This document shows positions 9,738-29,504 of a stretch of DNA of 64,000 bases, piece after piece. Position numbers and translations under genes: made by a program. The notes below the pieces were generated by a model, which searched no databases, was not told the origin of the DNA, and saw only the letters and a list, made by a program, of their open reading frames with translations. Source of the stretch: an uncultured bacterium (GTDB taxonomy: Bacteria > Planctomycetota > Phycisphaerae > Phycisphaerales > SM1A02); the NCBI GenBank assembly GCA_903898755.1, contig CAIUGT010000125.1, positions 2,386 to 66,385 of the forward strand, written 5' to 3'. Every line of letters begins with the position of its first letter. The first letter of the stretch is position 1.

Positions 9738-9939
9738 GAAGCGAAAGCTCGCCCATTATATAAAGTCCGAATAATTACACTGATTTTGATCAATTTTATA
9801 AGTATTGAGTAAAATAATCAGGAATCCGCCTTGCAAGCAAGAGCTCACCCGCTACAATTTAAGAGAATAATATCTTTTTATCTGTATATAAAGAGTCAGA
9901 ATAAGTTTGCCGTCAATACAACTTTTTGAAAGGTCGCAC

Positions 9940-10647
9940 ATGGAACCAATTACTTTAACGCCCGCAAATTCCGTGGGTCAATGGGCTGCTTCTTCGCCGG
10001 CCGCTGCCCGCACCCTAGCTGACATTGGTCTTGATATTTGCTGTGGCGGAAAACGTGCGCTGCTCGATGCGTGCCGTGAAAAAAATATGGATCCATCCGA
10101 TGTGGTGCAAAAAGTGTGCGCGGCACAAAATGCGCGCCAGGCTGATGGAGAAAGTGATCCAGCTCTCATGCCATTAGCAGAGTTAACACAGCACATTGTG
10201 GATACGCATCATGCGTATTTGCGACAAGCGTTGCCTCGTATCGAATATTGGATAGAAAAAATGGTCAAGGCTCATGGCGACAAGAATCCATCTTTCAGCG
10301 AATTGCTTGAGGTGTTTAAGGGTTTGCATATTGAAATGCAAACACACATGGACAAAGAGGAAAATATTTTGTTCCCAATGGCGGCGGCTATGGAATGCGG
10401 TATTCGACCCGCAATGAATTTAATGTATCCCGTGGCGTGCATGGAGCAAGATCACCAAGAAGCTGGTTTGGCTCTTGCTCGGATCAAGGAACTCACAAGA
10501 AGTTTTTCTGCACCGCCCAACGCGTGCACGACATGGCGAGCAGCCTATTCAGCATTGGCAGAATTAGATGCAGACATGCACCGCCATGTTCATAAAGAAA
10601 ATAATGTTTTATTTCCACGCATTATTGAAATGCAAAAAATGAATTGA
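9940..10647 (+). CDS. ric: Iron-sulfur cluster repair di-iron protein (RIC; YtfE/ScdA family)
   Basis: It has an N-terminal ScdA-type domain with DICCGG, then a hemerythrin-like domain with His/Glu ligands (HHAYL, HMDKEENILFP, HQEAG, HVHKENNVLFP). ATG 9940 is preferred over TTG 9907. Confidence 0.85.
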   Translation: MEPITLTPANSVGQWAASSPAAARTLADIGLDICCGGKRALLDACREKNMDPSDVVQKVCAAQNARQADGESDPALMPLAELTQHIVDTHHAYLRQALPRIEYWIEKMVKAHGDKNPSFSELLEVFKGLHIEMQTHMDKEENILFPMAAAMECGIRPAMNLMYPVACMEQDHQEAGLALARIKELTRSFSAPPNACTTWRAAYSALAELDADMHRHVHKENNVLFPRIIEMQKMN

Positions 10648-10689
10648 ACACTGCTCAAGTTGAAAATTGAAATCAAAACAAGAACGCAT

Positions 10690-13600
10690 ATGAACAAGCC
10701 TTTACCAATGGTTTCCCGGAGAAACTTTCTAAGCACTCTTGCCGCCACAAGCATTAGTTCGTTGGCTATCAGTAGGCATGCAATGGCTGCCATTGGCGCA
10801 TTGACGCCCATGGATGTCGCCAATCCATTAGCCGCATATCCAAACCGTGATTGGGAAAAGGTGTATCGCAATCTGTATAAACATGACTCTTCATTTGTGT
10901 TCATGTGCGCGCCCAACGACACGCATAATTGTTTGTTGCGGGGATTTGTGAAGAACGGCGTGGTGACTCGTATTGGCCCAAGTTGGGGCTACAACAAGGC
11001 CACCGATCTAGCAGGAAATAAAGCAAGCGCGCGTTGGGATCCGCGATGTTGTCAAAAAGGAATCGCGCTTGCCAGAAGATTTTATGGCGACCGCCGCATT
11101 AAAGAACCATTAGTTCGTCAAGGAATGCTTGATTGGCTTCAAGCGGGCAAGCCGCGCGGTACTGATGGAGCCATCGATCCGAAATATTTAAAGCGTGGCC
11201 ACGATTCATTTGTGCCAGTGACTTGGGAAAAAGCGTTCGAAGCGACCGCTGAAACAATGGTGGACATTGCCAAGACCTACAACGGAAAACAAGGCCAAGA
11301 AAAATTACTTGCGCAGGGATATGACCCGCTCATGGTTGAAACAACAGGCGGCGCGGGCACGCAAGTGATGAAGTTTCGTGGCGGTATGCCGCTCCTTGGA
11401 TTGACGCGCGTGATGGCGCAGTACCGTCTTGCCAACAGCATGGCGCTTTTGGACAGCACGTTGCGCGGAGTCGGCCCCGACCAAGCGGTTGGTGCGCGCG
11501 GCTTTGATAATTATTCATGGCACACGGATCTTCCGCCAGGACACCCAATGGTCACTGGTCAGCAGACCAATGATTTTGATTTGTGCATGGTTGAACACAG
11601 CAAAATGGTGATTGTGTGGGGCATGAATTGGATCGCAACCAAAATGCCGGACAGTCATTGGCTGACGGAAGCCAGAATGAAGGGCACGAAAGTTGTTGTG
11701 ATTGCTTGCGAATATTCCGCCACGGCAAACAAGTCAGACGAGTTGATTGTTGTGCGGCCTGGAACCACGCCCGCGCTTGCGCTTGGATTGGCGCAAGTCA
11801 TCATGAGTGAAAAACTCTATGACGACGCTTTTGTGCGCCGCCACACGGATCTACCGCTATTGATTCGTTTGGATAACGGAAAAATGTTGCGCGCCGCGGA
11901 GGTGTTCCCTGGATATCAAGCCGCGGTATTGACCAATGGAATCACCGTAGTCAAAACAGGTGAAAAACCACCAAGTACGTTGGAGCAATCGGGTGCGTTT
12001 GTGTCGCAGGAAAAACGAGCGGAGTGGGGCGACTATGTTGCTTATGACGATGTGGCCAAAAAGCCAGTGGCGGTGAATCGCGACCAGGTTGGTGACAAGG
12101 CAAACGCGCTTCCCAAAGGGTTGGCGTTGGACATTCGCACAAAAATAAAGTTGGCCGATGGCGGAGAAGTGGAATGCGCCACCGTTTGGAACGCCACCAA
12201 GCAAATGCTTGACAACGCGTACACGCCCGATTCCGTGGAGAAATTAACGTGGGCCAAGGCGGAGGCCATTCAAAGCTTGGCGCGACAAATTGCGGACAAC
12301 GCTGGCGGCGTTGCTTTCGCATGCGGCATGGGTCCCAATCAGTTCTTCAACAGCGACCTGAAGGACCGCGGCGTGTTTCTTGTTGCCGCGCTCACTGGCA
12401 ATGTTGGTAAAAAAGGCGGAAATGTAGGCAGTTATGCGGGTAATTATCGCATTGCCTATATGAGCGGCTTGCCGCAGTACATCTTGGAAAATCCATTTGA
12501 TATTGAACTTGATCCCACAAAGCCAGCGCGCTCCAAGCGTTATTGGAAACCTGAAAGCGTTCATTACTTCAACCACGGCGACATGATTTTGCGCAAAGGC
12601 AAAGCTGTGTTGACAGGCAAGACGCATTTGCCAACGCCGACAAAGTCAGTGTGTGTTTCCAACTCCAACAGTTTGATTGGAAATGTAAAGGGGCACTATG
12701 ACTTTGTTATTAACACATTGAAGCGCGTGGAATTGATCGCCATCAATGAGTGGTGGTGGACCGCTTCCTGCGAATATGCGGATGTTGTATTTCCTGTCGA
12801 TAGTTGGGCGGAGTTTCGCTATCCAGACATGACCATGTCGGTCACGAATCCGTTTGTGCAAGTGTTTCCAACTTCTCCGTTGCCGCGCATTCACAACACG
12901 CGCGGAGATATTGAAGTGGCGAAGGGTCTTGGCGAAGCCATTGGAAAACTGACAAATGATTCTCGGCATGCGGACTATTGGAAATTCATCAATGAAAAAG
13001 ATCGCGCGTTGCCTTATTTGCAACGCATGATGGATCAGTCCAACGCCATGCGTGGTTACAAAATTGAGGCCTTGGAAAAGAATGCGGAGCTTGGCATTCC
13101 GGCGATTCTGAACACGCGCACTTATCCAAAGTATTCAAGCTTTGAGCAAATTGAGGAGTCAAAGCCGTGGTATACAAAAACTGGTCGTTTGGAATTTTAT
13201 CGCGAAGAAGCTGAATTCCAAGATGCCGGAGAGAACGTGGTCATTCATCGCGAGCCGATTGACTCCACTCCATACGATCCGGCTTCATTGGTGTCGGCGC
13301 CACATCCATTGTTGCGGCCCAAGTCACCAGAAGATTATGGAACAAAAACTTCCGATCGCGACGCTGATTCGCGTCAAGCACGGCATGTGATTTACACCAC
13401 TGATGAGTTGCTTCAAACAGCGCATCCCTTGACCGAGCATGATCCGAATTATCGATTTGTTTTTCACACGCCAAAATATCGCCATGGAGCACACAGCACT
13501 CCCGTTGATCTAGACATTATCGCGGTTTGGTTTGGTCCCTTTGGCGACATGCATCGCCGCGACAAGCGAATGCCATTTGTGAATGAGGCATACGTAGATA

Positions 13601-14232
13601 TCAATCCCCTTGATGGCAAGTCGCTTGGTGTTGAGGATGGTGATTATGTTTTCATTGACGCCGATCCGCACGATCGACCGTTCAAAGGTTGGCAAAATAA
13701 TCCAGAGGGATACGCCGTGGCGCGTTTGATTGCGCGCGCCCGTTATTACCCAGGCACGCCGCGTGGAATTACACGCATGTGGCACAACATGTATGGCGCA
13801 ACATTTAGTTCCGTGGCGGCGGCGAAGGTGCGAGCGGATGGTTTGGCAAAATCCAAGGATACGAATTATCAAGCCAGTTTCCGCTCTGGTTCGCATCAAA
13901 GTTGCACGCGTGGTTGGCTCAAACCAACATGGATGACGGATTCATTGGTGGTGAAGGAGTTGCTGAATCAAGGCATTACTCAAGGATTTGTTCCTGACGT
14001 GCATTGTCCGGTCGGTGCTCCTCGTGAATCAATGGTGCGCATCACCAAGGCGGAAAATGGCGGACTCGGTGGCGAAGGAATTTGGTCACCAGAGACTCTT
14101 GGATATCGCCCCACGTATGAAAGTGACGCGATGAAAAAATTTATTCTTGGAGGATTTGTGACTCGTTCATTCATGGCGAATGTCACAAGCCCGCTTGTTG
14201 TTCCAATCACAAAAATTACTTCTCCAATGTAA
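10690..14232 (+). CDS. Tat-exported molybdopterin oxidoreductase alpha subunit, NarG/NxrA-like (type II DMSO reductase family), 1180 aa
   Basis: It has the twin-arginine signal [33 protein letters not shown] and the FS0 region [19 protein letters not shown]...RCCQKG. Segments resemble NarG, for example [21 protein letters not shown] and [32 protein letters not shown]. The length is in the NarG/NxrA range. Confidence 0.85.
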
Positions 14233-14241
14233 GAAGCCACC

Positions 14242-15369
14242 ATGCCAAAGATTTTCAATAAACAGATTGATCGTGAAATGGATTATCCGTACGAAACCTC
14301 GCCACCGAAGCGGCAGGTGGCGTACATATTTGACACCAACAAATGTATCGCGTGTCAGACCTGCACCATTGCGTGCAAGACATGTTGGACATCCGGCCGC
14401 GGGCAAGAACATATTTTCTACAACAACGTGGAGACCAAGCCATACGGAAGTTATCCAATGGGTTGGGATACAAAATTGCAAGAGCAGCGTGTGCAGGTGA
14501 CGTGGAACAACAAGCGTTTAGAGTCGCCAACTATTTTCGAAGGCAATTCACCCAATTCTCCGCCAGATGGTTGGCGGCCAACAAGTGAGGATTATGCGCA
14601 TCCCAATCATGGTGAAGATGACATCTCTGGCATCATCGAGAAGACCGCGCACTTTGCAGGTGAGCACCCCATGTGGATGTTTTATTTGGCGCGCATTTGT
14701 AACCATTGCACAACTCCCGCGTGCCTGGCGGCTTGTCCGCGCAAGGCCATTTACAAGCGTGAAGAAGATGGCATTGTGTTGGTGGATCAGGAACGCTGCC
14801 GTGGATATCAAGAATGTGTTCGCGCGTGTCCATATAAGAAAGTTTTTTACAACGCAGTGAGTCGCGCCAGCGAAAAATGCATTGGCTGTTTTCCGCGTGT
14901 GGAGCAAGGCTTGCAGGCTTTGTGCGTGGAAGGCTGTATTGGGAAAATCCGCATGCATGGTTTTATTTCAACGCAGACACCTCCGCGCGAGGACAATCCG
15001 CTTGACTACATCATTCACATTCGAAAGTTGGCGCTTCCGCTGTATCCACAATTTGGAACTGGTCCAAATGTCTATTACGTGCCGCCGATCCATGTACCGA
15101 TTGGGTTTTGTGAGCAACTCTTTGGTCCAGGTGTGGAGGAGTCTGTTTCGTTGTATCGCAAACTGAAAGACGATCCAAAATTGCTTGGAGCATTGTTCCT
15201 GTTTGGTTCCACCGATCACATCATTGAGCATTTTGAGGTGAAGGACCAAGTTGCAATTGGTTGGAATGCCAAAGGTGATGAAGTTTCTCGCGTTCCATTC
15301 ACTGAATACACCTATGTGCGCCCACACCATGACAAAGAATTTCAGGTGTACAGGCATAACACGGCTTGA
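14242..15369 (+). CDS. NarH/NxrB-like iron-sulfur beta subunit
   Basis: There are four Cys groups: CIACQTCTIAC, CNHCTTPACLAACP, CRGYQECVRACP (an aromatic residue sits where NarH has Trp, implying a 3Fe-4S cluster) and CIGCFPRVEQGLQALCVEGC. The gene starts 10 nt after the alpha stop. Confidence 0.85.
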   Translation: MPKIFNKQIDREMDYPYETSPPKRQVAYIFDTNKCIACQTCTIACKTCWTSGRGQEHIFYNNVETKPYGSYPMGWDTKLQEQRVQVTWNNKRLESPTIFEGNSPNSPPDGWRPTSEDYAHPNHGEDDISGIIEKTAHFAGEHPMWMFYLARICNHCTTPACLAACPRKAIYKREEDGIVLVDQERCRGYQECVRACPYKKVFYNAVSRASEKCIGCFPRVEQGLQALCVEGCIGKIRMHGFISTQTPPREDNPLDYIIHIRKLALPLYPQFGTGPNVYYVPPIHVPIGFCEQLFGPGVEESVSLYRKLKDDPKLLGALFLFGSTDHIIEHFEVKDQVAIGWNAKGDEVSRVPFTEYTYVRPHHDKEFQVYRHNTA

Positions 15370-15407
15370 TTGCACAGCATGTTTTACTTTTGAAATAAGG
15401 AATTCAC

Positions 15408-16355
15408 ATGACATACAAAAATACTTTAAGCAGCAAACGAATGCTTCCGCTGCACGGATTGGCGGGCGCGGTGTTTTTGGTGATTGCGGCGGCGTTTGTT
15501 TGGCGCATGCCATCCAATTCCAAAGCCACAGATACCACGAAAGATATTGTGGCGGTCAGTCCATTACATGTGACAAAAATCGCAACCCTTGGTGCGCCGG
15601 ATCCAACGGCTTCCTATTGGAAATCCGCGACCGTTGCGGTGGTTCCATTGCTTCCGCAAACAATCACCAAGCCCACAATTGAAAAATCGGAAATACATTC
15701 AATGGAAGTCCAGGCCGTGAGTGACGGGACAAATATTGCATGGCGACTTGCGTGGGCGGATCCCGAGGCCGACTCCGCGGTGGATTCTGGAAAATTTTCA
15801 GATGCGTGCGCCATTCAATTTCCAATTGGAACCAATACAAATTTAATGATGGGTCATGGTGGCGAAGTTGAGATTTTCTTGTGGAAAGCGATTTGGCAGC
15901 GAGATGTGAATCTTGGATTTCAAGATATTCGCGACCTGCATCCAAATGCATGGACCGATTTGTATTGGTTTTCCAAAGGTGGACTTGAAACAAATATAAA
16001 AGACGCGTTCGCGGATCCGCGAGCCAAGCAATGGATGATTGCGTTGACCGCGGGAAATCCAATGAGTCAAATGGATCGCAAACAACCTTGCGAAGAATGC
16101 ACGGCGAAAGGCTTCGGAACAATCGCCACACAGGCACAGCAATCATCACAAGCTGTTGGTGTCTGGGCTGGCGGGCAATGGGCCGTTGTTTTTCAACGAC
16201 CCCTTCGCACAGAAGATGTCACGGATTATCAATTTGGACTTCACGCATCAGAGTTTGCGCTTGCTGTCTGGCAAGGTAGCGCCAAGCAAGCTGGCGGTCG
16301 CAAGCAATTTTCTGGATGGGTTCCATTTGAATTGCTAAACGGAAATATCAAATGA
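15408..16355 (+). CDS. EB_dh-type (ethylbenzene dehydrogenase gamma-like) haem-b subunit
   Basis: An N-terminal signal/anchor (LHGLAGAVFLVIAAAFVW) is followed by VQAVSDGTNIAWRLAWADPEADSAVDSGKFSDACAIQFP, which is characteristic of the gamma subunits of periplasmic Nar-type enzymes (NxrC/SerC/ClrC/DdhC/EbdC). Confidence 0.7.
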   Translation: MTYKNTLSSKRMLPLHGLAGAVFLVIAAAFVWRMPSNSKATDTTKDIVAVSPLHVTKIATLGAPDPTASYWKSATVAVVPLLPQTITKPTIEKSEIHSMEVQAVSDGTNIAWRLAWADPEADSAVDSGKFSDACAIQFPIGTNTNLMMGHGGEVEIFLWKAIWQRDVNLGFQDIRDLHPNAWTDLYWFSKGGLETNIKDAFADPRAKQWMIALTAGNPMSQMDRKQPCEECTAKGFGTIATQAQQSSQAVGVWAGGQWAVVFQRPLRTEDVTDYQFGLHASEFALAVWQGSAKQAGGRKQFSGWVPFELLNGNIK

Positions 16356-17080
16356 ACGACTCGATCAAATCCTATGCCACAGCCGATCTTTTGATGCTTC
16401 TGACAAGCGCGATTGCTGGAAAGCAATCAGAGGATCAAAATCCAAGCCATGATGAACTGCAGGAGTTGGTTCGTTATGCGCAATTGCCAGACGATGTGAT
16501 AGGCCCCATGCACGAAGCGCTGCGCGCATTTTATGAAGCGCCTGCGAATGAATTGCATATGGAACGAGGCAGATTGTATTCGGCGGCGCAAGCGTGTCCG
16601 CCATACGAGGCCGCGTATGTGCGCCGCGACAAGGGTGCATTACTAGCGGATATCGCTGGATTTTACCATGCATTTGGTTTGCATTTGGATGAGCAGGTCC
16701 ATGAACGTCCCGACCATATTGTGATGGAATTGGAATTTCTTGCGTTGGCATTTGTCATGCTTGGAAATGCGCAAAAAGATGAAAACAGCGATGGTCTGGC
16801 GGTGTGTTGGCACTCCATTGCATTGTTTGCCAACGAACATCTTGGTGAGTGGATTGAATCGTTTGCCACAGTGCTCAGCGCGACAAGCACGGATGACGTG
16901 CATCCACGTATAGCCCATGCGGTTGGAGTTTTCTGGGAAGCCTTGCGCGAGCGGGAGTGTTGGTCAAAACCAAGTTGCCCTGGAATTGCTCCAGATATTC
17001 AGAACAAAAGTGAACATGACAGTCAATGGGATTGCGTTGGCGCCCAAGAACATGTTTGTGAAAAGGAGATTCAATCATGA
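16352..17080 (+). CDS. TorD/NarJ-family redox-enzyme maturation chaperone
   Basis: It overlaps the gamma gene by ATGA. It has the family motif PDHIVMELEFLALAFVML and lacks a signal peptide. Confidence 0.7.
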   Translation: MNDSIKSYATADLLMLLTSAIAGKQSEDQNPSHDELQELVRYAQLPDDVIGPMHEALRAFYEAPANELHMERGRLYSAAQACPPYEAAYVRRDKGALLADIAGFYHAFGLHLDEQVHERPDHIVMELEFLALAFVMLGNAQKDENSDGLAVCWHSIALFANEHLGEWIESFATVLSATSTDDVHPRIAHAVGVFWEALRERECWSKPSCPGIAPDIQNKSEHDSQWDCVGAQEHVCEKEIQS

Positions 17081-17859
17081 GTGAAGAAGATCATCAATTT
17101 TCCCAAGCACAGCAGGCAACTCACCCCGCGCGGAAAATTGTCTTTGGCAGCCTGATTAGCTTAAGTGTTTTGCCCATTGCAATGCTGCTTATTGCCGTGC
17201 TGTGGAGCGTAAAGCCAATGATTAAACAGTCATCTGCGCAAAATGATACGGCGCAAGAAAGTGCGGCCACCAACGGACATGTGAAAGGTGCGCTGATTAA
17301 TTTTGCGACATGCGCAACGTGCCACGGCGTGAATGGTGAAGGAAATGCAAAAATGCATGCCCCGCGAATAGCGGATCTTCCGCCTTGGTATGTAAAAGCG
17401 CAACTAGAAAAATTTCAAAACGGTTTACGCGGCGTGAATCCAACTGATGTCTATGGCCAGACCATGCGGCCAATGGCGATGCAAGTGCAGGATGTGGACG
17501 CGATGGCGAAGATTGTCTCCGATTTAGAGGGACATCGCGGACGATTTGCGCCCACGGGACCAGTCATTACAGGCAATGTTGATCATGGTCGAGTTTTATA
17601 TGCACAGTGCGTGGCTTGTCATGGCGTAAATGGCTTGGGTGAGCGTGGCGTGAAAAGTCCCACTATTGCGGGGCAAGAAAGTTGGTACGTGCAACAACAG
17701 TTAATGAATTTCCGAAGTGGTACGCGTGGAATTTCTACTGCGGACCGGGAGGGAAATTTAATGAGGATCATTGTCGCTCCTCTCAGTGATGCAGACATCG
17801 CTGACTTGGCGATTTTTGTGAACGCAATGGGTAACAAAAAAACTGTGACACCACAATGA
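17077..17859 (+). CDS. Membrane-anchored dihaem c-type cytochrome (class I, c4-like)
   Basis: ATGA overlap with the chaperone gene. There is one N-terminal TM helix (IVFGSLISLSVLPIAMLLIAVLW). Two CxxCH sites (CATCH, CVACH) are each followed by a P-x-I-A...WY...QL..F..G.RG module. Confidence 0.85.
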   Translation: MSEEDHQFSQAQQATHPARKIVFGSLISLSVLPIAMLLIAVLWSVKPMIKQSSAQNDTAQESAATNGHVKGALINFATCATCHGVNGEGNAKMHAPRIADLPPWYVKAQLEKFQNGLRGVNPTDVYGQTMRPMAMQVQDVDAMAKIVSDLEGHRGRFAPTGPVITGNVDHGRVLYAQCVACHGVNGLGERGVKSPTIAGQESWYVQQQLMNFRSGTRGISTADREGNLMRIIVAPLSDADIADLAIFVNAMGNKKTVTPQ

Positions 17860-19679
17860 ACAAAGTTACTGGCGTGCCACACACATTTCATATACCGGTG
17901 ATGGGTTTGGCCTACACCATTGATACCCCGATCAAGGTCGCGCGATTTGGAATTGCGTCTGTGATTTCGATTATCGAAGATCGATTGGTAGAGATGATGA
18001 GAAGTTATTACTACCCCACACTCAACTTGGAATATAAACCCATTTCGGGACACGAGGACGATTCTCGAGCAAAACGAATCACTGATTATTTAAATCTGGT
18101 GAACACGATTGTGCAGGGCCAATTTGAAAAATTAAGAAACGCAACGTTTGAGGCTGGTTCTGAAATCGTAAAATATTTTGAATTGCTTCCCGACGACAGC
18201 TCTTTGAAATTGTTGTACCGAAAAATGATGCGGTGTAGCGACGAGCTTGAAAAGTTGGAAATGGCGAATTTTTTACGCAAGCACATGCGTCCCGGAAGCA
18301 TTGATGTGAACATCATGACAAAATTGGATCGGGAAAAGTATGTCAAAAATGGCGATGGGGTTGTGAAAGAAGATGCTTCGGATGCGGTGGCGGCGCTTCG
18401 TGGATACGCAAAAAGCGACCTTTCAAATTCATCGGTCATTTTTTCGGCTGGGATCAATCCAAGACTTTTTAATTACTTGGCCAGCCGCAAGGAATTCGAA
18501 ATGAACTCGGACGGTGAATTCACAAAGAAAGTTGTTGTGAAGGTGAGTGATTATCGTTCTGCGTTGATACAGGGGAAATATCTTGCCAAGCGCGGTATTT
18601 GGGTTAGTGAATTCAGAATTGAATCCGGACTGAATTGTGGCGGGCACGCATTCGCGACCGATGGTTTTTTGCTTGGCCCAATTCTTGAGGAATTTAAAAC
18701 CAAGAAGCAAGAACTCATTGACACGTTGTTTCAAACATACGGCATTTCAATTTTGAAAAAGGGCTCCGTGCAATGTGAGCAAGCTCCTCCAATTCGAATT
18801 TCGGTGCAAGGCGGAATTGGCACCCGTGATGAGGATCTTTTTTTACACCAGTATTACAAGGTCCAAAGCACCGGATGGGGAACCCCATTTTTACTAGTGC
18901 CCGAAGCGACAACGGTTGACGAAGCAACCTTGAAACTATTAAGCGCCGCGCAAGAAAAAGATATCGTGTTGAGCCATAACTCACCATTGGGGGTTCGTTT
19001 TTATTCGCTCAAGGGAACGACGGCCGACGCGGAAAAATCATTTCGTATTTGCACTGGAAAACCGGGAAGTCCCTGCACCGAAAAACATTTGGCATTCAAC
19101 ACGGAATTCACAAATGAACCTATTTGCACGGCTTCTCAAAAATATCAAAAACTTAAAATCGAGCAGTTGCACACATTTCAATTGCCTCAACTCGAACATC
19201 AATCCCGTTTGAATTCCATATTGGGTAAGGAATGTCTGTGTGTTGGACTGAGCAATTCCGCGGCAATTACTTACAACAAGGTGTTCATAAAAAAATTAAA
19301 CGCCGTCACGATTTGCCCAGGTCCAAACATTGTTCATTTTTCCAAAGTGGTATCGCTGCGAACCATGGTTAATCATATTTACGGAAGAGGCAAAAGTTTG
19401 GTTTCTCCAGGCAGGCCGCACATGTTTATTGCGGAATTACGTTTATACGTCGCATATCTAAAGGAGCAATTCCAAGGTGGCATTCGTGTTGAAGATCACG
19501 TTCAACATAAAAAATACCTGGCGTCTTTTTATAGCAATCTGAAGAGCGGTATTTCGTATTACAAAAATTTGCCTGGCGTTTCGAAACCTTGTGGAGATCC
19601 TTTTCACAGGGATCTGGCGCGTGCTGAAATGGAATTGGATTCTTTGAACCTGCAATATGCAACGCCTTTGAATGCGTGA
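17856..19679 (+). CDS. Uncharacterised 607-aa cytoplasmic protein; possible divergent FMN TIM-barrel (NMO/FabK-like) with a Cys-containing C-terminal region
   Basis: ATGA overlap with the cytochrome c gene. No signal peptide or TM helix. Motifs: ESGLNCGGHAF (18621-), VQGGIGT (18807-) and GWGTPFLLVPEAT (18873-). The coding call is confident; the function is not. Confidence 0.45.
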   Translation: MNKVTGVPHTFHIPVMGLAYTIDTPIKVARFGIASVISIIEDRLVEMMRSYYYPTLNLEYKPISGHEDDSRAKRITDYLNLVNTIVQGQFEKLRNATFEAGSEIVKYFELLPDDSSLKLLYRKMMRCSDELEKLEMANFLRKHMRPGSIDVNIMTKLDREKYVKNGDGVVKEDASDAVAALRGYAKSDLSNSSVIFSAGINPRLFNYLASRKEFEMNSDGEFTKKVVVKVSDYRSALIQGKYLAKRGIWVSEFRIESGLNCGGHAFATDGFLLGPILEEFKTKKQELIDTLFQTYGISILKKGSVQCEQAPPIRISVQGGIGTRDEDLFLHQYYKVQSTGWGTPFLLVPEATTVDEATLKLLSAAQEKDIVLSHNSPLGVRFYSLKGTTADAEKSFRICTGKPGSPCTEKHLAFNTEFTNEPICTASQKYQKLKIEQLHTFQLPQLEHQSRLNSILGKECLCVGLSNSAAITYNKVFIKKLNAVTICPGPNIVHFSKVVSLRTMVNHIYGRGKSLVSPGRPHMFIAELRLYVAYLKEQFQGGIRVEDHVQHKKYLASFYSNLKSGISYYKNLPGVSKPCGDPFHRDLARAEMELDSLNLQYATPLNA

Positions 19680-19682
19680 TCC

Positions 19683-20360
19683 ATGAAAGACAAATCCAAT
19701 TCTCATATTGTGAACGCCTTGACGCACTTGATTTCATGCGGCGATATACCCGATGATCCGCCACAGAATCCCATGGATTTATTTCAGGAATGGTTTACGA
19801 ATGCAGAGGATTGCGGTCAATATGTAAACCCAAATGCGATGACTGTTGCAACAAGCACATTGGATGGCGCGCCTTCGGCCCGAATTGTTCTATGCAAGTG
19901 TTTAGAAACGCAGCCTCCAGCGTTGGTGTTTTTCACAAGTTATGAAAGTAGAAAGGGTAGGGAAATAGAAGCAAATCCCAGGGCTGCGGCGGTGTTTCAT
20001 TGGCCGCACGCCAAGCGGCAGGCGCGCGTGGAAGGAGTTGTGGAGCGCGTCTCGTCTCAAGAAAGTGACCAGTATTTTAGTTCGCGACCACTCATCTCAC
20101 GCATCGGTAGTTCGGTCAGCCCACAAAGTCAGGTGATTTCTTCAAGAGCAAGCTTGGTTGCATCGGCGATTAAATTAGCGGGTCAAGCCACTCTTGCGGG
20201 AAAGCTTCCGCGTCCAGCGAATTGGGGTGGGTACAGAATTCATATTCGTGTTGTAGAACTTTGGTCGGCGCGTGAGGGCCGACTGAATGATCGCGTACGG
20301 TGGATACACGATGACTCAGATTCCACCACAAGTTGGAAAGTGACGCGGCTTGGATCTTGA
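19683..20360 (+). CDS. pdxH: Pyridoxamine 5'-phosphate oxidase
   Basis: PNPOx hallmarks are present: NAMTVATSTLDGAPSARIVLCK, FFTSYESRKGREIEANPRAAAVFHW, QARVEGVV, SDQYFSSRP and C-terminal PANWGGYRI...VELW...RLNDRVRW. The gene starts 3 nt after the upstream stop. Confidence 0.85.
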   Translation: MKDKSNSHIVNALTHLISCGDIPDDPPQNPMDLFQEWFTNAEDCGQYVNPNAMTVATSTLDGAPSARIVLCKCLETQPPALVFFTSYESRKGREIEANPRAAAVFHWPHAKRQARVEGVVERVSSQESDQYFSSRPLISRIGSSVSPQSQVISSRASLVASAIKLAGQATLAGKLPRPANWGGYRIHIRVVELWSAREGRLNDRVRWIHDDSDSTTSWKVTRLGS

Positions 20361-20451: not shown

Positions 20452-20631
20452 TTATTTACTTTTTTGGCAGTCAGATTTTGTATGGATCAATGGCGCATCG
20501 TCTAGGAGCATGCGAATTGCTGGCGTATTCAGATCCTCATATTGATCGTTGTGGGCCGCCCACATAAATGCCAGCACGGCCGCTGCGGCTATGAAAAGTG
20601 CCACTGGAATGGCTATATAAATCAGAATCAT
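20452..20631 (-). CDS. ccoS: cbb3 oxidase maturation protein CcoS (59 aa)
   Basis: Hand translation gives MILIYIAIPVALFIAAAAVLAFMWAAHNDQYEDLNTPAIRMLLDDAPLIHTKSDCQKSK. This has one TM helix plus the CcoS signature W-x5-Q-[FY]-[DE]-DL-x2-P-x2-R-x-L-x-DD. Its ATG overlaps the ccoI TGA (ATGA). It is absent from the ORF track. Confidence 0.8.
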   Translation of the reverse strand: MILIYIAIPVALFIAAAAVLAFMWAAHNDQYEDLNTPAIRMLLDDAPLIHTKSDCQKSK

Positions 20632-23318
20632 GCGTGCACCTTGGTTGGAGATGTGTTGATTTCCAAGGCATTCTTCGCTGCAATTGGTGTCGTTGATCTT
20701 GCCGCAGACGAATTTGTTTTTTTCGTGTGAGATTGAATAATCGTCGCTGCGTTGTGAATTTCAAATCGTGGCATGCGCAACGCAACAGCCGTTACGGTCA
20801 AGCCACTGAGCGGCATCAGCACCGCAGCGATGAGTGGATTGATGACACCTGTTGCGGCAAGGGCGCCGCCGACAATGTTGTATGCCAGACTGATCGCAAA
20901 ATTCACATGTATTGTTTTCATGGTTCGTCGTGCGCCATCAAGCAGTGAAACAACTTGGCCAAGTCCGCCGCCTGTCAGCGCCACATCCGCATGTTCAAGA
21001 GTGACTCGCGCGCCTTGGCGTACCGCAATGCCGACATCCGCAGCGGCCATTGCGGGTAAATCATTCACACCGTCGCCAATCATGACAATCGGACCAACGT
21101 GGTGGCTTGCCCGGCATGCTGCAACAATTTCAACCTTGCGCTCGGGTGTGCATGCGCCCCACACTTGTTGATCAGGAATCTTTAACTGACAACCAATATT
21201 CAACGCAATTTCTGTGACGTCACCCGAGGCCATCCACATATTCCAACCGCGATTCGCTAGGTTGTGAACCAGTTCAAGTGCGTCGCTTCGAAGGGGATCA
21301 CCCACGCCAATCGCGGCGCATGTGACATGATCAATTGTCACGAAAACTGGTGAAAACCCCTCGCGAATCATGTCGTGTGCGTGTGCAATCACAACGGCGT
21401 TGCTGATGTCATCGTGAATAGATGAAAATTTTTGGTTGCCAACTTTCACTTCATGACCATTCACGATTCCAGAAATTCCGCCGCCAATCGTTTCGTGAAC
21501 GTCGGTCACGATTGCGCCCAGTTGATAATGTTGCGCAATCGCTTTCGCAATTGGATGCGTGCTTCGCGCCTCAAGAGCCGCCGCAAAATTCAAATCGGTT
21601 GATTCACCACATTCACGCAAGACGCGCATGCTGCCCTCGGTCACCGTGCCGGTTTTGTCCAAGATGATTGTTCCGCTGCGCGCTAGGCGCTCAAATACAT
21701 CACCACCGCGAATTAAAATTCCAATACGCGCGGCTTTTCCAAGCGCCGCCACCATGGTGAGCGGGGTCGCAAGACCGAGAGCGCACGGACACGTGACCAC
21801 CAACATTGCGATCACAATAGAGAGGGCCCGTGTTGGATCAATAAACCACCACGCACACCCTGTGATTGTGGTGACAATGATGACTGCAAGTAAAAACCAA
21901 CCTGCGATTCGGTTTGCAAATTCAACCACGCGTGGTCGTTCACCCGCCGCATTTTCCACCATGCGCGCAATGGCGCCCGCACGCGTTTCCACGCCGGAGG
22001 TTGTCACAAGAACACGGACTGGATGTTGCTCTAACAATCGAACGCCCGCAAAAATGGTTTCGCCACATTGCACCATCACTGGTCGCGATTCACCAGTGAG
22101 TAGTTGCATGTCAAAATTGGCGGCGCTATTCACAAGTGTTCCGTCGGCGCACACGGATTCACCCGCGGAAATTTCAACTATGTCACCAGGGCGCAAAGCC
22201 TCTGTTGGAATTTCTTCTATCGATTCAGCGTTTGATTCTGTTCGTATTTCGGTTGTCGTATCAATTGACTTCAAATTGTTGTTCATCACGCGCCGAGCGG
22301 TTTGTGGAACCAGCGCGCAAATCAATTCAAGATCATGCCGTGCCGATCGTTGTTGACGAAACTGCACAAATCGTCCAACAAGAAGCAAAAATACGAGCAT
22401 GGAGACGCTTTCAAAATAAACACCCGGACGATTTGCCGCCGTCATTGCGACGCCACCTAAAAGACCCGCCAGCAACGCAAGAGCAATAGGTAAGTCCATG
22501 TGCGGACTACGCGCGCGGATTGCGTTGAAGGCATTGGTCAGGAAAAGTTTTCCAGGCCAAAACACCGCCACCGTAGCCAACGCCACGCTTGTCCACTGCA
22601 GAAATTGACGCGTTGAATCATCCATCCAAGAAAATTGCGCGCCGTACAACGCGAAGGCAATCGCCATGACATTGCCACTGATGGCCCCGGCCACCGCGAT
22701 ATGAACCAACCACGCGCGATCCTGTCTACGCCACTCACTGCGCGAAGCGAGCGTTCCAATTGGTCGTACTTCATATCCCAGCGAAGCGATGCGCGTGGCA
22801 ATTGCGGACAAAGTTGTTTCGGTTGCTAGCCATTCCAGTGCGATAACGGAACGGCCAAGATCAACACGCGCGCTAAGAAGTCCTTGTTGCAAACGCGGAA
22901 GTGATTCCAGCAACCAAAGACATGCGCCGCATTTCAAACCATCAAGACGAAGTTCCGCGCACAGTCGGTCGTTATCCAGTTGTTGAACGTGTCTTTGCTG
23001 AAAATCCGCGTGGTCCAAATACAACAAAGAACCCTTTATTTGCGGTCTATTCGGCAAAAATCCATTGTCTTGTTGAAGCTTGTAATAGCCTTCCAATCCG
23101 CATTGGTGAAGCATGTGCCACACGGCTTCGCATCCTGTGCAACAAAATAATTCAGTCCTTGTTTGTGTGTTGGCTTGTGTATGCAAAGTTTCAGAGAACT
23201 GCAGGTTGTTGGTTGTGACAGCATTCGTCTTGCCAGAATTGAGTTGATGTTCGCTGAAAGCGTTTGAAACAGGTAACCCGCAATGCGCGCAAGAATTGGT
23301 CTTGTTCACAAATGTCAT
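20628..23318 (-). CDS. ccoI: Copper-translocating P1B-type ATPase, CcoI/FixI
   Basis: It has the N-terminal CAHCGLP and CCTGCEAVWHML motifs, the TM metal site CPC (VVTCPCALGLATP), DKTGT, and the GDGVND hinge. It sits inside the cco maturation cluster. Confidence 0.9.
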   Translation of the reverse strand: MTFVNKTNSCAHCGLPVSNAFSEHQLNSGKTNAVTTNNLQFSETLHTQANTQTRTELFCCTGCEAVWHMLHQCGLEGYYKLQQDNGFLPNRPQIKGSLLYLDHADFQQRHVQQLDNDRLCAELRLDGLKCGACLWLLESLPRLQQGLLSARVDLGRSVIALEWLATETTLSAIATRIASLGYEVRPIGTLASRSEWRRQDRAWLVHIAVAGAISGNVMAIAFALYGAQFSWMDDSTRQFLQWTSVALATVAVFWPGKLFLTNAFNAIRARSPHMDLPIALALLAGLLGGVAMTAANRPGVYFESVSMLVFLLLVGRFVQFRQQRSARHDLELICALVPQTARRVMNNNLKSIDTTTEIRTESNAESIEEIPTEALRPGDIVEISAGESVCADGTLVNSAANFDMQLLTGESRPVMVQCGETIFAGVRLLEQHPVRVLVTTSGVETRAGAIARMVENAAGERPRVVEFANRIAGWFLLAVIIVTTITGCAWWFIDPTRALSIVIAMLVVTCPCALGLATPLTMVAALGKAARIGILIRGGDVFERLARSGTIILDKTGTVTEGSMRVLRECGESTDLNFAAALEARSTHPIAKAIAQHYQLGAIVTDVHETIGGGISGIVNGHEVKVGNQKFSSIHDDISNAVVIAHAHDMIREGFSPVFVTIDHVTCAAIGVGDPLRSDALELVHNLANRGWNMWMASGDVTEIALNIGCQLKIPDQQVWGACTPERKVEIVAACRASHHVGPIVMIGDGVNDLPAMAAADVGIAVRQGARVTLEHADVALTGGGLGQVVSLLDGARRTMKTIHVNFAISLAYNIVGGALAATGVINPLIAAVLMPLSGLTVTAVALRMPRFEIHNAATIIQSHTKKTNSSAARSTTPIAAKNALEINTSPTKVHA

Positions 23319-24136
23319 TGCTCACTCATTTCTTTACAACACGCGTGCGGACCATTTGCGATGTTTGAAAGGGTCGAATTTTTCACCTCATCACCAACGG
23401 CCCCCGCGCGAATGTCTTGTGAGTGATTGTTGTTATTTTTTTCAGACAATCGTGTTGCCACAACTTCAGCAAGCGGTGCGCGAACGCCAGCGGTATACAC
23501 GCCAACGGCAATCATGAAAGCGCCAGCAATTGCCGCTAAAATTCTTCGCTTTTGCCCGCCAAGCGACGCAATACCCGCGCCAACAAGCGCCAGAATTGGA
23601 ACAGTTCCCAACCAAAATGCGGCCATGACCAACGCGCCCTCGACGACACGCCCAGTGCCCGCAGCCACCGCTGCAAATGCCCAAAGCCATCCACAGGGAA
23701 GCAGCGGTGTGGCCAATCCAATCACCAATGCGCGTGGAGTTGGCTGCATTGTTGCGGCCACTTTGTGTATTGCGCCAAGCGAGCGCTTCATCCAAAGTGG
23801 CAAAGGCACACGACCTGAATCAATTCCCGCGGATTGAAGCAGCATGCCAACTCCAACAAGTGCCACCGCAATACCAGCTGCAATGGCGGCGATGTGTTGC
23901 ACACCAACAAGCCCGCCGCCAGAATTCAGTAGCACTCCGCATGCGCCGGCGAGAGCGCCAACAAAAACATAGGAGGCAAATCGTGAGACGTGATAAACGC
24001 AACTCGCTATGGAACTTGCACGGCCGGAGCACTGACCAACTCCGCCACAGAATGCGGCGATTCCGCCACACATGCCTGCGCAGTGCGCGCTGCCCACCAG
24101 GCTGGCAAATAAAACACTCGCCAACAACGCAATCAT
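23315..24136 (-). CDS. DsbD_2/TauE-like membrane protein with HCxGMCGG motif (cco-cluster associated)
   Basis: The N-terminus is MIALLASVLFASLVGSAHCAGMCGGIAAFCGG and the protein is polytopic. ATGA overlaps occur on both sides, with fixH and ccoI. Confidence 0.6.
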   Translation of the reverse strand: MIALLASVLFASLVGSAHCAGMCGGIAAFCGGVGQCSGRASSIASCVYHVSRFASYVFVGALAGACGVLLNSGGGLVGVQHIAAIAAGIAVALVGVGMLLQSAGIDSGRVPLPLWMKRSLGAIHKVAATMQPTPRALVIGLATPLLPCGWLWAFAAVAAGTGRVVEGALVMAAFWLGTVPILALVGAGIASLGGQKRRILAAIAGAFMIAVGVYTAGVRAPLAEVVATRLSEKNNNNHSQDIRAGAVGDEVKNSTLSNIANGPHACCKEMSEQ

Positions 24137-24711
24137 GGCGTGGCTCCTTCTTGTTTTGCAACCTGCTCTTTGATTTCAGAGTTGTCTTGCATCACAACAG
24201 GTTCAGCCGGACGCGGCTTTCCAAATAAAAGATGCCGGCGAAAGCGATCGCAGTAAATGTGATTTTTTGCTTCAACCGTGGCGCGAATTTCCCACATGCC
24301 GTTTACGCGCAGTGGGACATCCGCGGCGTAATGACCAGCAGAAATTTCTTGAAGTGCCGTCGATATACGTGAATTGGCCGCAAGAATAGGAATACATTCC
24401 ACGCGTACCCGTGCTTGTTCAATGTTTACGCCGTACTTGTCCGCGACGGTCAGTTCTAATCGCGCCAGTGTTGGATCATTTTGTCCCGCGACAAATGTTG
24501 ACGTGACAACCCAGCCAAGCACTCCATTCTCGGCGAGTTGCTTGCGATAGTCGTCCCACGCAAGAGCCTTTCGGTAGTAGTCGGGTTCAACGGCGGTCAC
24601 ATTTGAATCCGAGAAAGCAAATGTAAGAATGACAATTGCCGCCGTGATGGTGAATGACAGCATGAGTACCGGAACCAAAGCCCACCGATTTTGTATGAGG
24701 CGAGAAATCAT
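24133..24711 (-). CDS. FixH-family protein
   Basis: It has a single N-terminal TM helix (WALVPVLMLSFTITAAIVILTFAF), then EPDYYRKALAWDDY and a beta-rich domain. It lies between ccoG and ccoI as in fixGHIS. Confidence 0.65.
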   Translation of the reverse strand: MISRLIQNRWALVPVLMLSFTITAAIVILTFAFSDSNVTAVEPDYYRKALAWDDYRKQLAENGVLGWVVTSTFVAGQNDPTLARLELTVADKYGVNIEQARVRVECIPILAANSRISTALQEISAGHYAADVPLRVNGMWEIRATVEAKNHIYCDRFRRHLLFGKPRPAEPVVMQDNSEIKEQVAKQEGATP

Positions 24712-26737: not shown

Positions 26738-26939
26738 GATTCTTCTCCTTTTCAGATTGAGTTTGTTGAGGCTTTTCCAGTGGAAGTTGAGCGTCTTTTT
26801 GCCACGCTGATTTTGGAATAATGAACACATATGCCACAATTCCAGCGAAAATCACTAGGAAAATGATCAACGCCAAAGTGGGCATGAAGCCACTTTCAGC
26901 CAGCAACAAACAACGCGTCTGCATCTGTATGTGTGTCAT
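26730..26939 (-). CDS. Small single-pass membrane protein in the CcoQ position
   Basis: It has one TM helix (MPTLALIIFLVIFAGIVAYVFII). ATGA overlap with the ccoNO stop. An alternative start is ATG 26885. Confidence 0.5.
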   Translation of the reverse strand: MTHIQMQTRCLLLAESGFMPTLALIIFLVIFAGIVAYVFIIPKSAWQKDAQLPLEKPQQTQSEKEKNHG

Positions 26940-29248: not shown

Positions 29249-29366
29249 ATCTTTTGTTCTCCAACGTAAGCCGATTTGGAAGGGCCCAACAGCGAGCCCA
29301 TGAAATCCGAATCAAATCTGCGATAGAAAGTCTTTGATTTGGCTGTTTTTGCTTTTAGCGAATTGC

Positions 29367-29412: not shown

Positions 29413-29504
29413 ATAGATTGAAATTTAAAATGTTCGGATTGCAATTGAAGCGGTCTTCAATTACCGAAACATGGTCTGAAATCTCGCCTTCCAAAGGAAT
29501 GCCC

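What the first reader, a model, noticed from the sequence alone, without database searches (positions are those of the whole stretch)
17856..19679. Uncharacterised 607-aa protein translationally coupled to the NXR-like operon, with faint nitronate-monooxygenase/FabK-type FMN-barrel motifs
Seen:
- The ATG (17856-17858) overlaps the cytochrome c stop (ATGA), and pdxH starts 3 nt after its own stop, so it is embedded in the operon.
- It has no signal peptide or TM helix.
- Three motifs occur in the order expected for an FMN TIM barrel: ESGLNCGGHAF, VQGGIGT and GWGTPFLLVPEAT.
- The last ~230 residues carry scattered Cys residues (CTGKPGSPC, ICTAS, ECLCVGL, ICPGP, KPCGD).

Known: NMO/FabK-type enzymes carry an (E/S)-[AG]-GGH catalytic segment, a GGI phosphate-binding turn and a G-T-x-F-L-x-x-x-E segment. 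Nitronate monooxygenases release nitrite from alkyl nitronates.

Inference (speculative): it may be a flavoenzyme acting on a nitrogen-oxide or nitro compound that is functionally tied to the periplasmic molybdoenzyme. It could also be a new maturation or electron-transfer factor. I do not recognise it as a named family.
Basis: partly seen in the sequence, partly recalled or inferred. Interest (0 to 1): 0.7.

Follow-up and report, generated by a model that had tools for sequence, protein, structure and literature searches.

The report
Unnamed FMN-barrel enzyme, anoxia/NO-linked
The 607-residue protein is real and founds a large, unnamed family of flavin enzymes with a FabK/nitronate-monooxygenase-type barrel plus a four-cysteine domain, and in Bacteroidota it sits among low-oxygen and nitric-oxide response genes rather than serving the neighbouring molybdenum enzyme specifically.

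Summary
Every sequence observation checks out: the ORF, the ATGA overlap, the 3-nt gap to pdxH, the lack of TM segments, the three motifs and the Cys positions.

No Pfam, NCBIfam or PDB sequence match exists. A confident AlphaFold model (pLDDT 93.7) hits only NMO/FabK-superfamily FMN TIM barrels in Foldseek (DfnA-ER, PfaD, FabX, FabK, NMO, PA1024; E down to 6e-10). The motif-based fold guess is therefore right, but the homology is visible by structure only.

The family is large (at least 8000 clusters, at least 599 species, mostly Bacteroidota). GGH, GGI and four C-terminal Cys (C407, C424, C460, C487) are invariant, and one lineage fuses X to a diflavin reductase.

The NXR-like operon link is real (alpha subunit matches Kuenenia NxrA, E 4.5e-254) but rare. 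It occurs only in this lineage and, independently, in one Elusimicrobia genome.

In Bacteroidota, 34 of 80 loci place X among RIC, NOR/oxidase-like, Nos, Rrf2 and Fnr genes. An FNR-type palindrome, TATGAY-N4-RTCATA (17 exact sites against 1.2 expected), precedes X, RIC and qNor.

Best reading: an FMN plus probable Fe-S oxidoreductase of the low-oxygen/NO response, substrate unknown. It is a new variant within a known fold.

The parts
17856..19679 (+). CDS of X (607 aa), an unnamed NMO/FabK-fold flavoprotein family member
   Evidence: ORF and translation; at least 8000 homologues; AF2 and Foldseek
17880..18920 (+). Residues about 9-355: (beta/alpha)8 FMN-type TIM barrel (PVMG, VNIM, ESGLNCGGH, QGGIG, GWGTPF elements)
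   Evidence: Secondary structure of the pLDDT 93.7 model; Foldseek hits to FabK, FabX, NMO, PfaD and DfnA-ER; invariant residues
18021..18293 (+). Residues about 56-146: helical insertion between barrel strands beta2 and beta3, longer than the equivalent stretch of FabK (inference)
   Evidence: Helices 70-94, 103-109, 116-126 and 130-143 in the model. In the FabK sequences the stretch from the GGM element to the VN element is about 50 residues, against about 135 from PVMG (M16) to VNIM (N152) in X
18621..18653 (+). ESGLNCGGHAF (residues 256-266): loop carrying invariant C261 and H264, the proposed equivalent of the NMO-family catalytic His
   Evidence: role of the His in FabK/FabX from PMC8626469; the equivalence is inferred from motif order
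18804..18911 (+). VQGGIGT ... GWGTPFLLVPEAT (residues 317-352): proposed FMN phosphate-binding turns
   Evidence: Invariant Q318, G320 and G340; the only hhalign local match to FabK (AAGGI...QVGTRF) falls here; the sub-threshold NMO hit of P0208 falls here
18921..19415 (+). Residues about 356-520: C-terminal Cys-bearing subdomain with invariant C407 (19074-19076), C424 (19125-19127), C460 (19233-19235), C487 (19314-19316) and near-invariant C462 (19239-19241); a proposed [4Fe-4S] or other metal site
   Evidence: Conservation; FabX precedent; metal binding is inferred, not shown
19422..19640 (+). Residues about 523-595: long helices forming the C-terminal tail
   Evidence: Model; compositional apolipoprotein A-I hits only
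9907..10647 (+). First gene of the operon: RIC/YtfE-type di-iron Fe-S repair protein
   Evidence: TIGR03652 228 bits, above its cutoff
10660..17859 (+). NXR-like type II DMSO-reductase-family genes: alpha (10660-14232, Tat motif), beta (14242-15369), EB_dh gamma (15408-16355), NarJ-like delta (16352-17080), dihaem cytochrome c (17077-17859)
   Evidence: (7b04_B NxrA, E 4.5e-254)
19683..20360 (+). pdxH, last gene of the operon
   Evidence: the next gene (20628-23318) is on the minus strand
9780..9793 (.). CTGATTTTGATCAA: FNR-box-like site in the only intergenic promoter region of the operon (weak evidence)
   Evidence: the pattern is not enriched window-wide (18 sites against 11.5 expected)

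Best explanation
X is a cytoplasmic flavoenzyme of a previously unnamed family. Its N-terminal two thirds form an FMN-binding TIM barrel of the NMO/FabK/FabX type, with a catalytic loop carrying invariant Cys261 and His264. Its C-terminal third carries four invariant cysteines that most likely hold a [4Fe-4S] cluster (or another metal centre). That centre would exchange electrons between the FMN and an external ferredoxin- or flavodoxin-type partner, so X would need no NAD(P)H site of its own. In Bacteroidota the gene belongs to the low-oxygen/nitric-oxide response, under an FNR-type regulator and/or beside Rrf2 regulators, together with RIC, NOR/oxidase-like and Nos genes. In this MAG it has been appended, together with RIC and pdxH, to an NXR-like nitrate/nitrite oxidoreductase operon, so that it is made whenever nitrite and NO are being turned over. 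It is a co-expressed stress or anoxia enzyme, not a subunit or maturation factor of the molybdoenzyme. The chemistry at the FMN is probably His/Cys-assisted reduction or dehydrogenation of a C=C or nitro/nitronate-type organic substrate; the substrate is unknown. Shown here: the fold, the conservation, the contexts, the palindrome and the fusion. Inferred: FMN binding, the Fe-S cluster, the direction of electron flow, the regulation and the substrate.
For: Fold: model pLDDT 93.7, pTM 0.94. All 30 Foldseek PDB hits with E <= 1e-3 are NMO/FabK-superfamily barrels, with TM-scores up to 0.63 normalised to the target.

FMN and catalytic elements named for FabX/FabK in PMC8626469 (GGM, N99, the GxH loop with the catalytic His, GG, and Q-x-x-T) have family-invariant counterparts in the same order in X: G17, N152, G262-G263-H264, G319/G320, G342-T343.

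Metal site: C407, C424, C460 and C487 are invariant in 137 sequences while the other Cys vary. FabX shows that this fold can carry a C-terminal [4Fe-4S] subdomain 13.4 A from the FMN.

External electron partner: the fusion of X to Flavodoxin_1, FAD_binding_1 and NAD_binding_1 is seen in 3 assemblies. In four loci a small ferredoxin gene lies on the same strand just upstream of X, with a YhbP-like split-barrel gene between them in three of the four.

Physiology: 34 of 80 Bacteroidota loci have RIC, hemerythrin, qNor, divergent HCO, NosD/NosY, DUF2249, Rrf2 or Fnr genes within 5 genes of X. The palindrome TATGAY-N4-RTCATA gives 17 exact sites against 1.2 expected, all intergenic; with up to one mismatch, 14 lie upstream of X, 4 upstream of RIC, 2 upstream of qNor and 2 upstream of Fnr-like genes. 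It recurs within 250 bp upstream of X in 7 independent metagenome loci. The regulator's best match is Fnr, and it has an N-terminal CxxCxxxC.

Window: RIC heads the operon, and a cbb3 oxidase operon and an Rrf2 gene lie within 10 kb.
Against: Sequence-level homology to NMO/FabK is not significant (hhalign probability 1.3%; no Pfam hit). The NO/anoxia context is strong only in Bacteroidota: 7 of 79 loci in the diverse set, where BioB-like, ThiC, NadA/NadB, class II RNR, beta-eliminating lyase and lipid genes appear instead. The window has no copy of the palindrome within one mismatch, and its FNR-like box is a weak match. The regulon is predicted from sequence alone. An FNR-type regulon indicates low oxygen as much as NO.
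Confidence: 0.5

Rival explanations
1. X is a lipid or acyl-carrier enzyme: a FabK/FabX/PfaD-like enoyl reductase or acyl dehydrogenase acting on acyl-ACP, acyl-CoA or lipid chains, for example an oxygen-independent route for modifying fatty acids under anoxia.
For: The best structural matches are enoyl reductases and dehydrogenases of fatty-acid or polyketide synthesis: DfnA-ER, PfaD, MlnA-ER, FabX, FabK and the FAS ER domain. One lineage fuses X to a PlsC-type acyltransferase domain (P0152). Neighbours include an acyltransferase and an AMP-binding ligase in Polyangiaceae, a fatty-acid desaturase three genes away in a Planctomycetes contig, and 4HBT thioesterase plus GNAT genes on the same strand upstream in Chitinophagaceae.
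Against: No fab, ACP or PKS genes recur near X in 163 loci. The lipid-related neighbours are few and scattered. The FabX cluster motif (C300, C304, C308, C320) is absent. Foldseek ranks by barrel similarity, which does not fix the substrate.
Confidence: 0.2
2. X is a dedicated accessory of the periplasmic NXR-like molybdoenzyme (a maturation, cofactor or electron-transfer factor), as the operon position suggests.
For: X is translationally coupled inside the operon and the arrangement is kept in an 89%-identical relative. Independently, an Elusimicrobia lineage places X (48% identical) last in a same-strand cluster of beta, NarJ-like delta, EB_dh/cytochrome c gamma, TatA, Moco biosynthesis genes and TatC. 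The subunits there are 31-38% identical to the window's.
Against: 79 of 80 Bacteroidota loci and about 80 of 83 other loci have no such enzyme within 10 kb. The family occurs in at least 599 species. X is cytoplasmic whereas the enzyme is exported by Tat. The operon already encodes a NarJ-type chaperone.
Confidence: 0.08
3. X is a true nitronate monooxygenase that oxidises alkyl nitronates with O2 and releases nitrite.
For: Motif resemblance. NMO and 2-nitropropane dioxygenase structures are among the Foldseek hits (2gjl, 5lsm, 3bw3). One divergent member gives a sub-threshold PF03060 hit (E 1.4e-4).
Against: X and 72 of 73 members do not match PF03060. NMO proper ranks below the enoyl reductases in Foldseek. 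X has an extra domain of about 250 residues with four invariant Cys. Its FNR-type low-oxygen context fits poorly with an O2-consuming reaction.
Confidence: 0.07
4. X is a general low-potential redox helper that supplies or removes electrons for oxygen- and NO-labile Fe-S or radical-SAM cofactor-biosynthesis enzymes under anoxia.
For: Recurrent neighbours are NadA plus NadB on the same strand, BioB-like, ThiC, HemN-like, MoaA, U32 with ferredoxin, class II RNR, OFOR, FeS_assembly_P, RIC and pdxH. The fusion to a flavodoxin/FNR-type module fits too.
Against: These associations are heterogeneous, each in a few loci, and may only reflect shared anaerobic regulation. The invariant Cys261/His264 active-site loop argues for a substrate-converting enzyme rather than a pure electron carrier.
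Confidence: 0.1

Closest known systems
FabX of Helicobacter pylori (PDB 7e1q, 9lt5): an NMO-family FMN dehydrogenase/isomerase with a C-terminal [4Fe-4S] subdomain
   Same: An FMN TIM barrel followed by a C-terminal Cys-bearing subdomain. Foldseek E 2.6e-9 to 7.6e-9, TM 0.59-0.61 normalised to FabX. A GxH catalytic loop and GG/G-T phosphate turns occur in the same order.
   Different: 12-15% identity. The FabX cluster motif is C300-x3-C304-x3-C308-x11-C320 in a 97-residue subdomain. X has C407-x16-C424-x35-C460-x-C462-x24-C487 in about 250 residues, a helical insertion of about 90 residues in the barrel, an extra invariant Cys261 in the catalytic loop, and no ACP or fab context.
FabK enoyl-ACP reductase II (PDB 2z6i, 5gvh, 7l00) and the Pfam NMO family PF03060
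   Same: The same barrel (TM up to 0.63 normalised to the target). The local hhalign match covers QGGIGT...GWGTPF against AAGGIADG...QVGTRF.
   Different: No significant sequence or profile match. X is about twice as long and carries the Cys4 domain. FabK uses NAD(P)H directly, whereas X appears to rely on external Fe-S or flavodoxin partners (inference).
Trans-acting enoyl reductases PfaD, DfnA-ER and MlnA-ER (PDB 4z9r, 6lkc, 4cw5, 4z38)
   Same: These give the best Foldseek E-values (6e-10 to 7e-9). They are larger NMO-fold proteins with extra elements around the barrel.
   Different: 13-18% identity and no PKS or PUFA-synthase genes near X in any of 163 loci. They are not known to carry a Cys4 site (my own knowledge, not tested here).
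Nitronate monooxygenase / 2-nitropropane dioxygenase and PA1024 NADH:quinone reductase (PDB 2gjl, 6e2a, 5lsm, 3bw3)
   Same: Barrel fold and a GGH-type loop.
   Different: Weaker structural matches (E 2.5e-6 to 1.8e-4). They have no Fe-S domain. Their chemistry depends on O2 or NADH, whereas X sits in FNR-type low-oxygen contexts.

Membership tests
NMO/FabK structural superfamily (FMN-dependent TIM barrels) | (beta/alpha)8 barrel superposable on solved members | tested here: met
   AF2 pLDDT 93.7. Foldseek probability 1.00, E 6e-10 to 6e-4 for 30 hits, all from this superfamily.
NMO/FabK structural superfamily (FMN-dependent TIM barrels) | FMN-binding elements and the catalytic His, in order: GGM-type turn, Asn after beta3, G-x-H loop, GG(I), G-T | tested here: met
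   PVMG (G17), VNIM (N152), GGH (262-264), QGGIG (318-322) and GWGTPF (340-345) are invariant or nearly so. The residue list for FabX comes from PMC8626469. Structural equivalence is inferred from order and spacing, not from superposed coordinates.
NMO/FabK structural superfamily (FMN-dependent TIM barrels) | Actually binds FMN | not testable with these tools
   Needs purified protein or cofactor modelling.
Pfam NMO (PF03060), sequence family | Scores above the gathering threshold of PF03060 | tested here: not met
   No hit for X. 1 of 73 members reaches 21.8 bits against a cutoff of 28. hhalign against FabK gives probability 1.3%.
Nitronate monooxygenase (enzyme activity) | O2-dependent oxidation of alkyl nitronates to nitrite | not testable with these tools
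   Biochemical assay required. The context argues against it.
FabX-type NMO enzymes with [4Fe-4S] | C-terminal cluster motif Cx3Cx3Cx11C | tested here: not met
   The spacings between the conserved Cys of X are 16, 35, 1 and 24 residues, against C300/C304/C308/C320 in FabX.
FabX-type NMO enzymes with [4Fe-4S] | Sequence relationship to FabX or FabK detectable by HMMER | tested here: not met
   A FabK query finds FabX at E 1e-14. The X family profile finds neither FabK nor FabX in the PDB.
Trans-AT PKS / PUFA synthase enoyl reductases (PfaD, DfnA-ER) | Encoded in or beside PKS or PUFA synthase clusters | tested here: not met
   No such neighbours in 163 loci.
Subunit or accessory of type II DMSO-reductase-family (NXR/Nar-like) enzymes | Consistent co-occurrence with alpha, beta, gamma and delta genes | tested here: not met
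   Adjacent only in the window's lineage and in one Elusimicrobia lineage.

The most novel reading that the evidence does not exclude
X is the prototype of a new enzyme class: an FMN-[4Fe-4S] oxidoreductase induced by anoxia and NO. It would draw electrons from ferredoxin or flavodoxin and detoxify or convert a product of nitrogen-oxide chemistry, for example nitroalkenes/nitronates, nitrosated thiols or NO itself. That would be a missing component of nitrosative-stress defence in Bacteroidota and several other phyla.
Probability: 0.2. Interest if true: 0.8.

Novelty: new variant of a known kind. Interest (0 to 1): 0.6.

Why it matters
This is one of the larger protein families still without a name. 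It has at least 8000 clusters at 90% identity, at least 599 species representatives, about 70% identity across Chitinophagaceae genera, and no Pfam or NCBIfam model.

Placing it in the NMO/FabK fold with a distinct four-Cys domain would give, after FabX, only a second likely case of an Fe-S-bearing member of that superfamily.

The predicted FNR-type regulon (X, RIC, qNor-like, Fnr) and the repeated attachment to NXR-like operons give directly testable hypotheses about how environmentally abundant Bacteroidota cope with nitrite and NO at low oxygen. This is a poorly mapped part of the nitrogen cycle. Cultured carriers such as Fulvivirga marina, Terrimonas pollutisoli and Sphingobacterium siyangense make the experiments feasible.

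Tried and rejected
1. Pfam, NCBIfam and PDB sequence searches with X and with family profiles found no real hit. The apolipoprotein A-I hits are compositional matches to the helical, E/K-rich tail.

2. The first AF2 run, on 30 near-identical sequences, was unusable (pLDDT 61). It was replaced by a run on a 137-sequence alignment.

3. hhalign of the family against four FabK sequences taken from PDB alignments gave probability 1.3%, so sequence-level homology is not claimed.

4. A regex search for bona fide NMO/FabK genes in all the DNA held found none.

5. Mean-field DCA on 564 sequences (Meff 361), meant to test proximity of the Cys segments, was dominated by hub positions and was discarded as noise.

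6. The model coordinates are not exposed, so the Cys geometry could not be measured.

7. I first labelled a 460-aa COX1-family neighbour 'NorB-like' and took the window's 770-aa gene for a NOR. Pfam and NCBIfam show the window gene is a fused CcoN-CcoO cbb3 oxidase, and the 460-aa cluster is a divergent heme-copper oxidase/NOR-superfamily protein of uncertain type.

8. The palindrome was compared with the published NsrR box (gATGyAT-N5-ATrCATc). The spacing differs, so it is not an NsrR site; its core is FNR/HcpR-like.

9. The palindrome is absent from the window within one mismatch. Relaxed FNR-box searches of the window are not enriched over shuffles.

10. The terminator scan around X is at chance level (15 found against 15.3 expected), so the hairpin at 17797-17813 is not evidence of termination.

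11. Literature searches found no description of this family.
Full report
**Observation.** The ORF at 17856-19679 (+) encodes 607 residues. Its ATG overlaps the TGA of the upstream dihaem cytochrome c gene as ATGA. pdxH, confirmed by NCBIfam above its cutoff, starts 3 nt after the stop of X. The highest 19-residue hydropathy mean is 1.35, so there is no TM or signal-like segment. All descriptive claims are confirmed.

**Operon context.** Upstream, on the same strand with gaps of -4 to +38 nt, lie a RIC/YtfE di-iron protein, a Tat-signal alpha subunit, the Fe-S beta subunit, an EB_dh haem-b gamma subunit, a NarJ-like delta subunit and the dihaem cytochrome c. The alpha subunit matches Kuenenia nitrite oxidoreductase NxrA over its full length (7b04_B, E 4.5e-254, SRRNFLS motif). 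The next gene after pdxH is on the other strand. The 'NXR-like operon' is therefore real. An 89%-identical relative keeps the overlap, X, 3-nt gap and pdxH layout.

**What X is.**
- Pfam-A and NCBIfam give no family. PDB sequence and profile searches give nothing real.
- X nevertheless has at least 8000 homologous 90% clusters, all 'hypothetical'. Identity is about 70% across Chitinophagaceae, Saprospiraceae and relatives.
- There are 1238 representatives at 50% identity and at least 599 species representatives carrying both signature peptides, mostly Bacteroidota. Planctomycetota, Myxococcota, Elusimicrobiota, Omnitrophota, Zixibacteria and Chlorobiota also have members.
- A shallow alignment gave a poor model. 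A 137-sequence alignment at 35-69% identity gave pLDDT 93.7 and pTM 0.94.
- Foldseek against the PDB returned 30 hits with E <= 1e-3, every one an NMO/FabK-superfamily FMN barrel: DfnA-ER, PfaD, MlnA-ER, FabX, FabK, TM0800, PA1024, 2-nitropropane dioxygenase, NMO and the FAS enoyl-reductase domain. Identity is 10-18% and TM-scores reach 0.63 relative to the target.
- At sequence level the link is invisible. Only 1 of 73 members touches PF03060 below threshold. hhalign against FabK gives probability 1.3%, and its one local match aligns QGGIGT...GWGTPF with AAGGI...QVGTRF.

**Anatomy.** The barrel spans about residues 9-355, with a helical insertion of about 90 residues (56-146). Then come a Cys-bearing subdomain (356-520) and long terminal helices.
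- Invariant across 137 sequences are G17, N152, S197-A198-G199, K224, K229, E252, R254, E256-S257, N260-C261-G262-G263-H264, Q318, G320, G340, C407, C424, C460 and C487. C462 is nearly invariant, and the other four Cys vary.
- The elements that bind FMN in FabX and its catalytic His182 (PMC8626469) have ordered counterparts in X.
- FabX is described there as the only characterised family member with a [4Fe-4S] cluster (C300, C304, C308, C320; 13.4 A from the FMN).
- The Cys spacing and subdomain size of X differ, so this is an independent or much diverged solution. Whether it holds an Fe-S cluster is inferred, not shown.

**Electron partners.**
- One lineage fuses X to a Flavodoxin_1, FAD_binding_1 and NAD_binding_1 (CysJ/CPR-type) reductase. 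The fusion is seen at an identical length of 1167 aa in three assemblies.
- In four loci (L002, L007, L011, L020) a U32-family gene and a small ferredoxin gene lie on the same strand just upstream of X. A YhbP-like split-barrel gene sits between the ferredoxin and X in L002, L007 and L020, while in L011 the ferredoxin gene directly precedes X.
- The YhbP-like gene also directly precedes X in several further loci.
- In the window the neighbour is another split-barrel flavoprotein, PdxH.
- This pattern suggests that X exchanges electrons with external carriers.

**Is X tied to the molybdoenzyme?** Mostly not.
- In 80 species-level Bacteroidota loci, the NXR-like genes, the cytochrome c and pdxH occur next to X only in L001, the window's own lineage.
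- In 83 further loci only one case appears, but it is striking. An Elusimicrobia genome has beta, NarJ-like delta, a propeller protein, EB_dh/cytochrome c gamma, TatA, MoaD, MoaE, MoaC, MoaB, MoeA, MobA, MoaA, TauE, TatC and then X, all on one strand. Its subunits are 31-38% identical to the window's.
- Two independent recruitments to the 3' end of NXR-like operons suggest a physiological link (nitrite/NO turnover), not a structural one.

**What recurs instead.**
- In Bacteroidota, 34 of 80 loci have Rrf2, Fnr-like, RIC, hemerythrin, qNor (with the NorB cytochrome-c-like domain), divergent heme-copper oxidase plus cytochrome c, NosD/NosY, DUF2249/DUF1858 or FeS_assembly_P genes within 5 genes of X. 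The figure is 25 of 80 for the effector genes alone.
- A 16-bp palindrome, TATGAY-N4-RTCATA, occurs exactly 17 times in 1.33 Mb against 1.2 expected, always in intergenic DNA. With up to one mismatch, 14 sites lie 20-130 bp upstream of X, 4 upstream of RIC, 2 upstream of qNor, 2 upstream of Fnr-like genes, and others upstream of a 12-TM protein and a cytochrome c.
- The palindrome recurs 44-250 bp upstream of X in 7 independent metagenome loci.
- Its core, TGAy-N4-rTCA, is that of FNR/DNR/HcpR boxes and not the NsrR box (PMC1274295). The adjacent regulator's best match is Fnr, and it has an N-terminal CxxCxxxC.
- X is thus a predicted member of an FNR-type low-oxygen/NO regulon.
- The window lacks the palindrome. 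It has only a weak FNR-like box, CTGATTTTGATCAA, upstream of RIC. However, RIC heads its operon, and a cbb3 oxidase operon with a divergent Rrf2 gene lies 1-10 kb downstream.
- Outside Bacteroidota the NO theme fades to 7 of 79 loci. There the neighbours are BioB-like, ThiC, NadA plus NadB, class II RNR, OFOR, beta-eliminating lyase, and occasionally acyltransferase, AMP-ligase or desaturase genes.

**Mechanism proposed.** X is a cytoplasmic FMN enzyme whose Cys4 centre relays single electrons between a ferredoxin- or flavodoxin-type partner and the flavin. The substrate would be converted at the flavin with H264 and C261 as acid/base. The enzyme would be expressed under low oxygen or NO, and here it is co-transcribed with an NXR-like enzyme and RIC. 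The substrate is unknown. Candidates are nitroalkene/nitronate-type or enoyl-type compounds. The rivals (a lipid enoyl reductase or dehydrogenase, a molybdoenzyme accessory, a true NMO, a general redox helper) are weighed in their own section.

**Novelty and score.** X has a known fold but belongs to an unnamed family with a distinct architecture and a new predicted regulon. I classify it as a new variant of a known kind. Interest is 0.6: the family is very large and conserved, has no annotation and comes with testable hypotheses, but its function remains inferred.

Noticed in passing
window 9907-17859: A Bacteroidota-like lake MAG (Loc080925-8m_bin-397) carries a complete periplasmic NXR-type operon. 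Its alpha subunit matches Kuenenia NxrA over the full length (849 bits). The operon is headed by a RIC gene and ends with a dihaem cytochrome c. Whether it oxidises nitrite or reduces nitrate is open.
   Followed up: partly
window 20628-29999: A cbb3 oxidase operon on the minus strand: fused CcoN-CcoO (770 aa), CcoP, CcoG, FixH, a DsbD_2 protein and the CcoI P-type ATPase. An unclassified Rrf2 regulator (29418-29999) is transcribed divergently from it.
   Followed up: partly
window 30160-31563 and 32956-34764: Two further sizeable ORFs (467 and 602 aa) with no Pfam or NCBIfam family.
   Followed up: no
L039 (Fulvivirga marina) 835, 4429, 6078, 9923, 13196, 13990; also L023, L026, L046, L058, L068: The predicted FNR-type regulon marked by TATGAY-N4-RTCATA includes an unannotated 12-TM membrane protein (about 427 aa, cluster c26, no Pfam or NCBIfam hit) and a small cytochrome c (c30), as well as X, RIC and qNor.
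   Followed up: partly
L002, L007, L011, L020 (upstream of X): A same-strand run of (GNAT) > 4HBT thioesterase > Peptidase_U32 > small ferredoxin > YhbP-like > X. From memory, it resembles the E. coli yhbS-ubiT-ubiU-ubiV/yhbP region for oxygen-independent hydroxylation.
   Followed up: no
P0128, P0130, P0152: Natural fusions of X to a CysJ-type diflavin reductase (1167 aa, 3 assemblies), to an N-terminal TetR regulator (812 aa) and to a C-terminal PlsC-type acyltransferase (981 aa).
   Followed up: partly
L012, L018, L027, L035: MAG records titled Bordetella parapertussis, Asaia bogorensis, Rhizobium sp. and Sphingobacterium thalpophilum carry X genes 60-66% identical to the Chitinophagaceae-type query. 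The first three look like mislabelled bins.
   Followed up: no
L056, L070, L136; L039, L110, L143: nadA-nadB and class II ribonucleotide reductase genes repeatedly lie on the same strand directly beside X in unrelated lineages. No explanation so far beyond shared anaerobic regulation.
   Followed up: no
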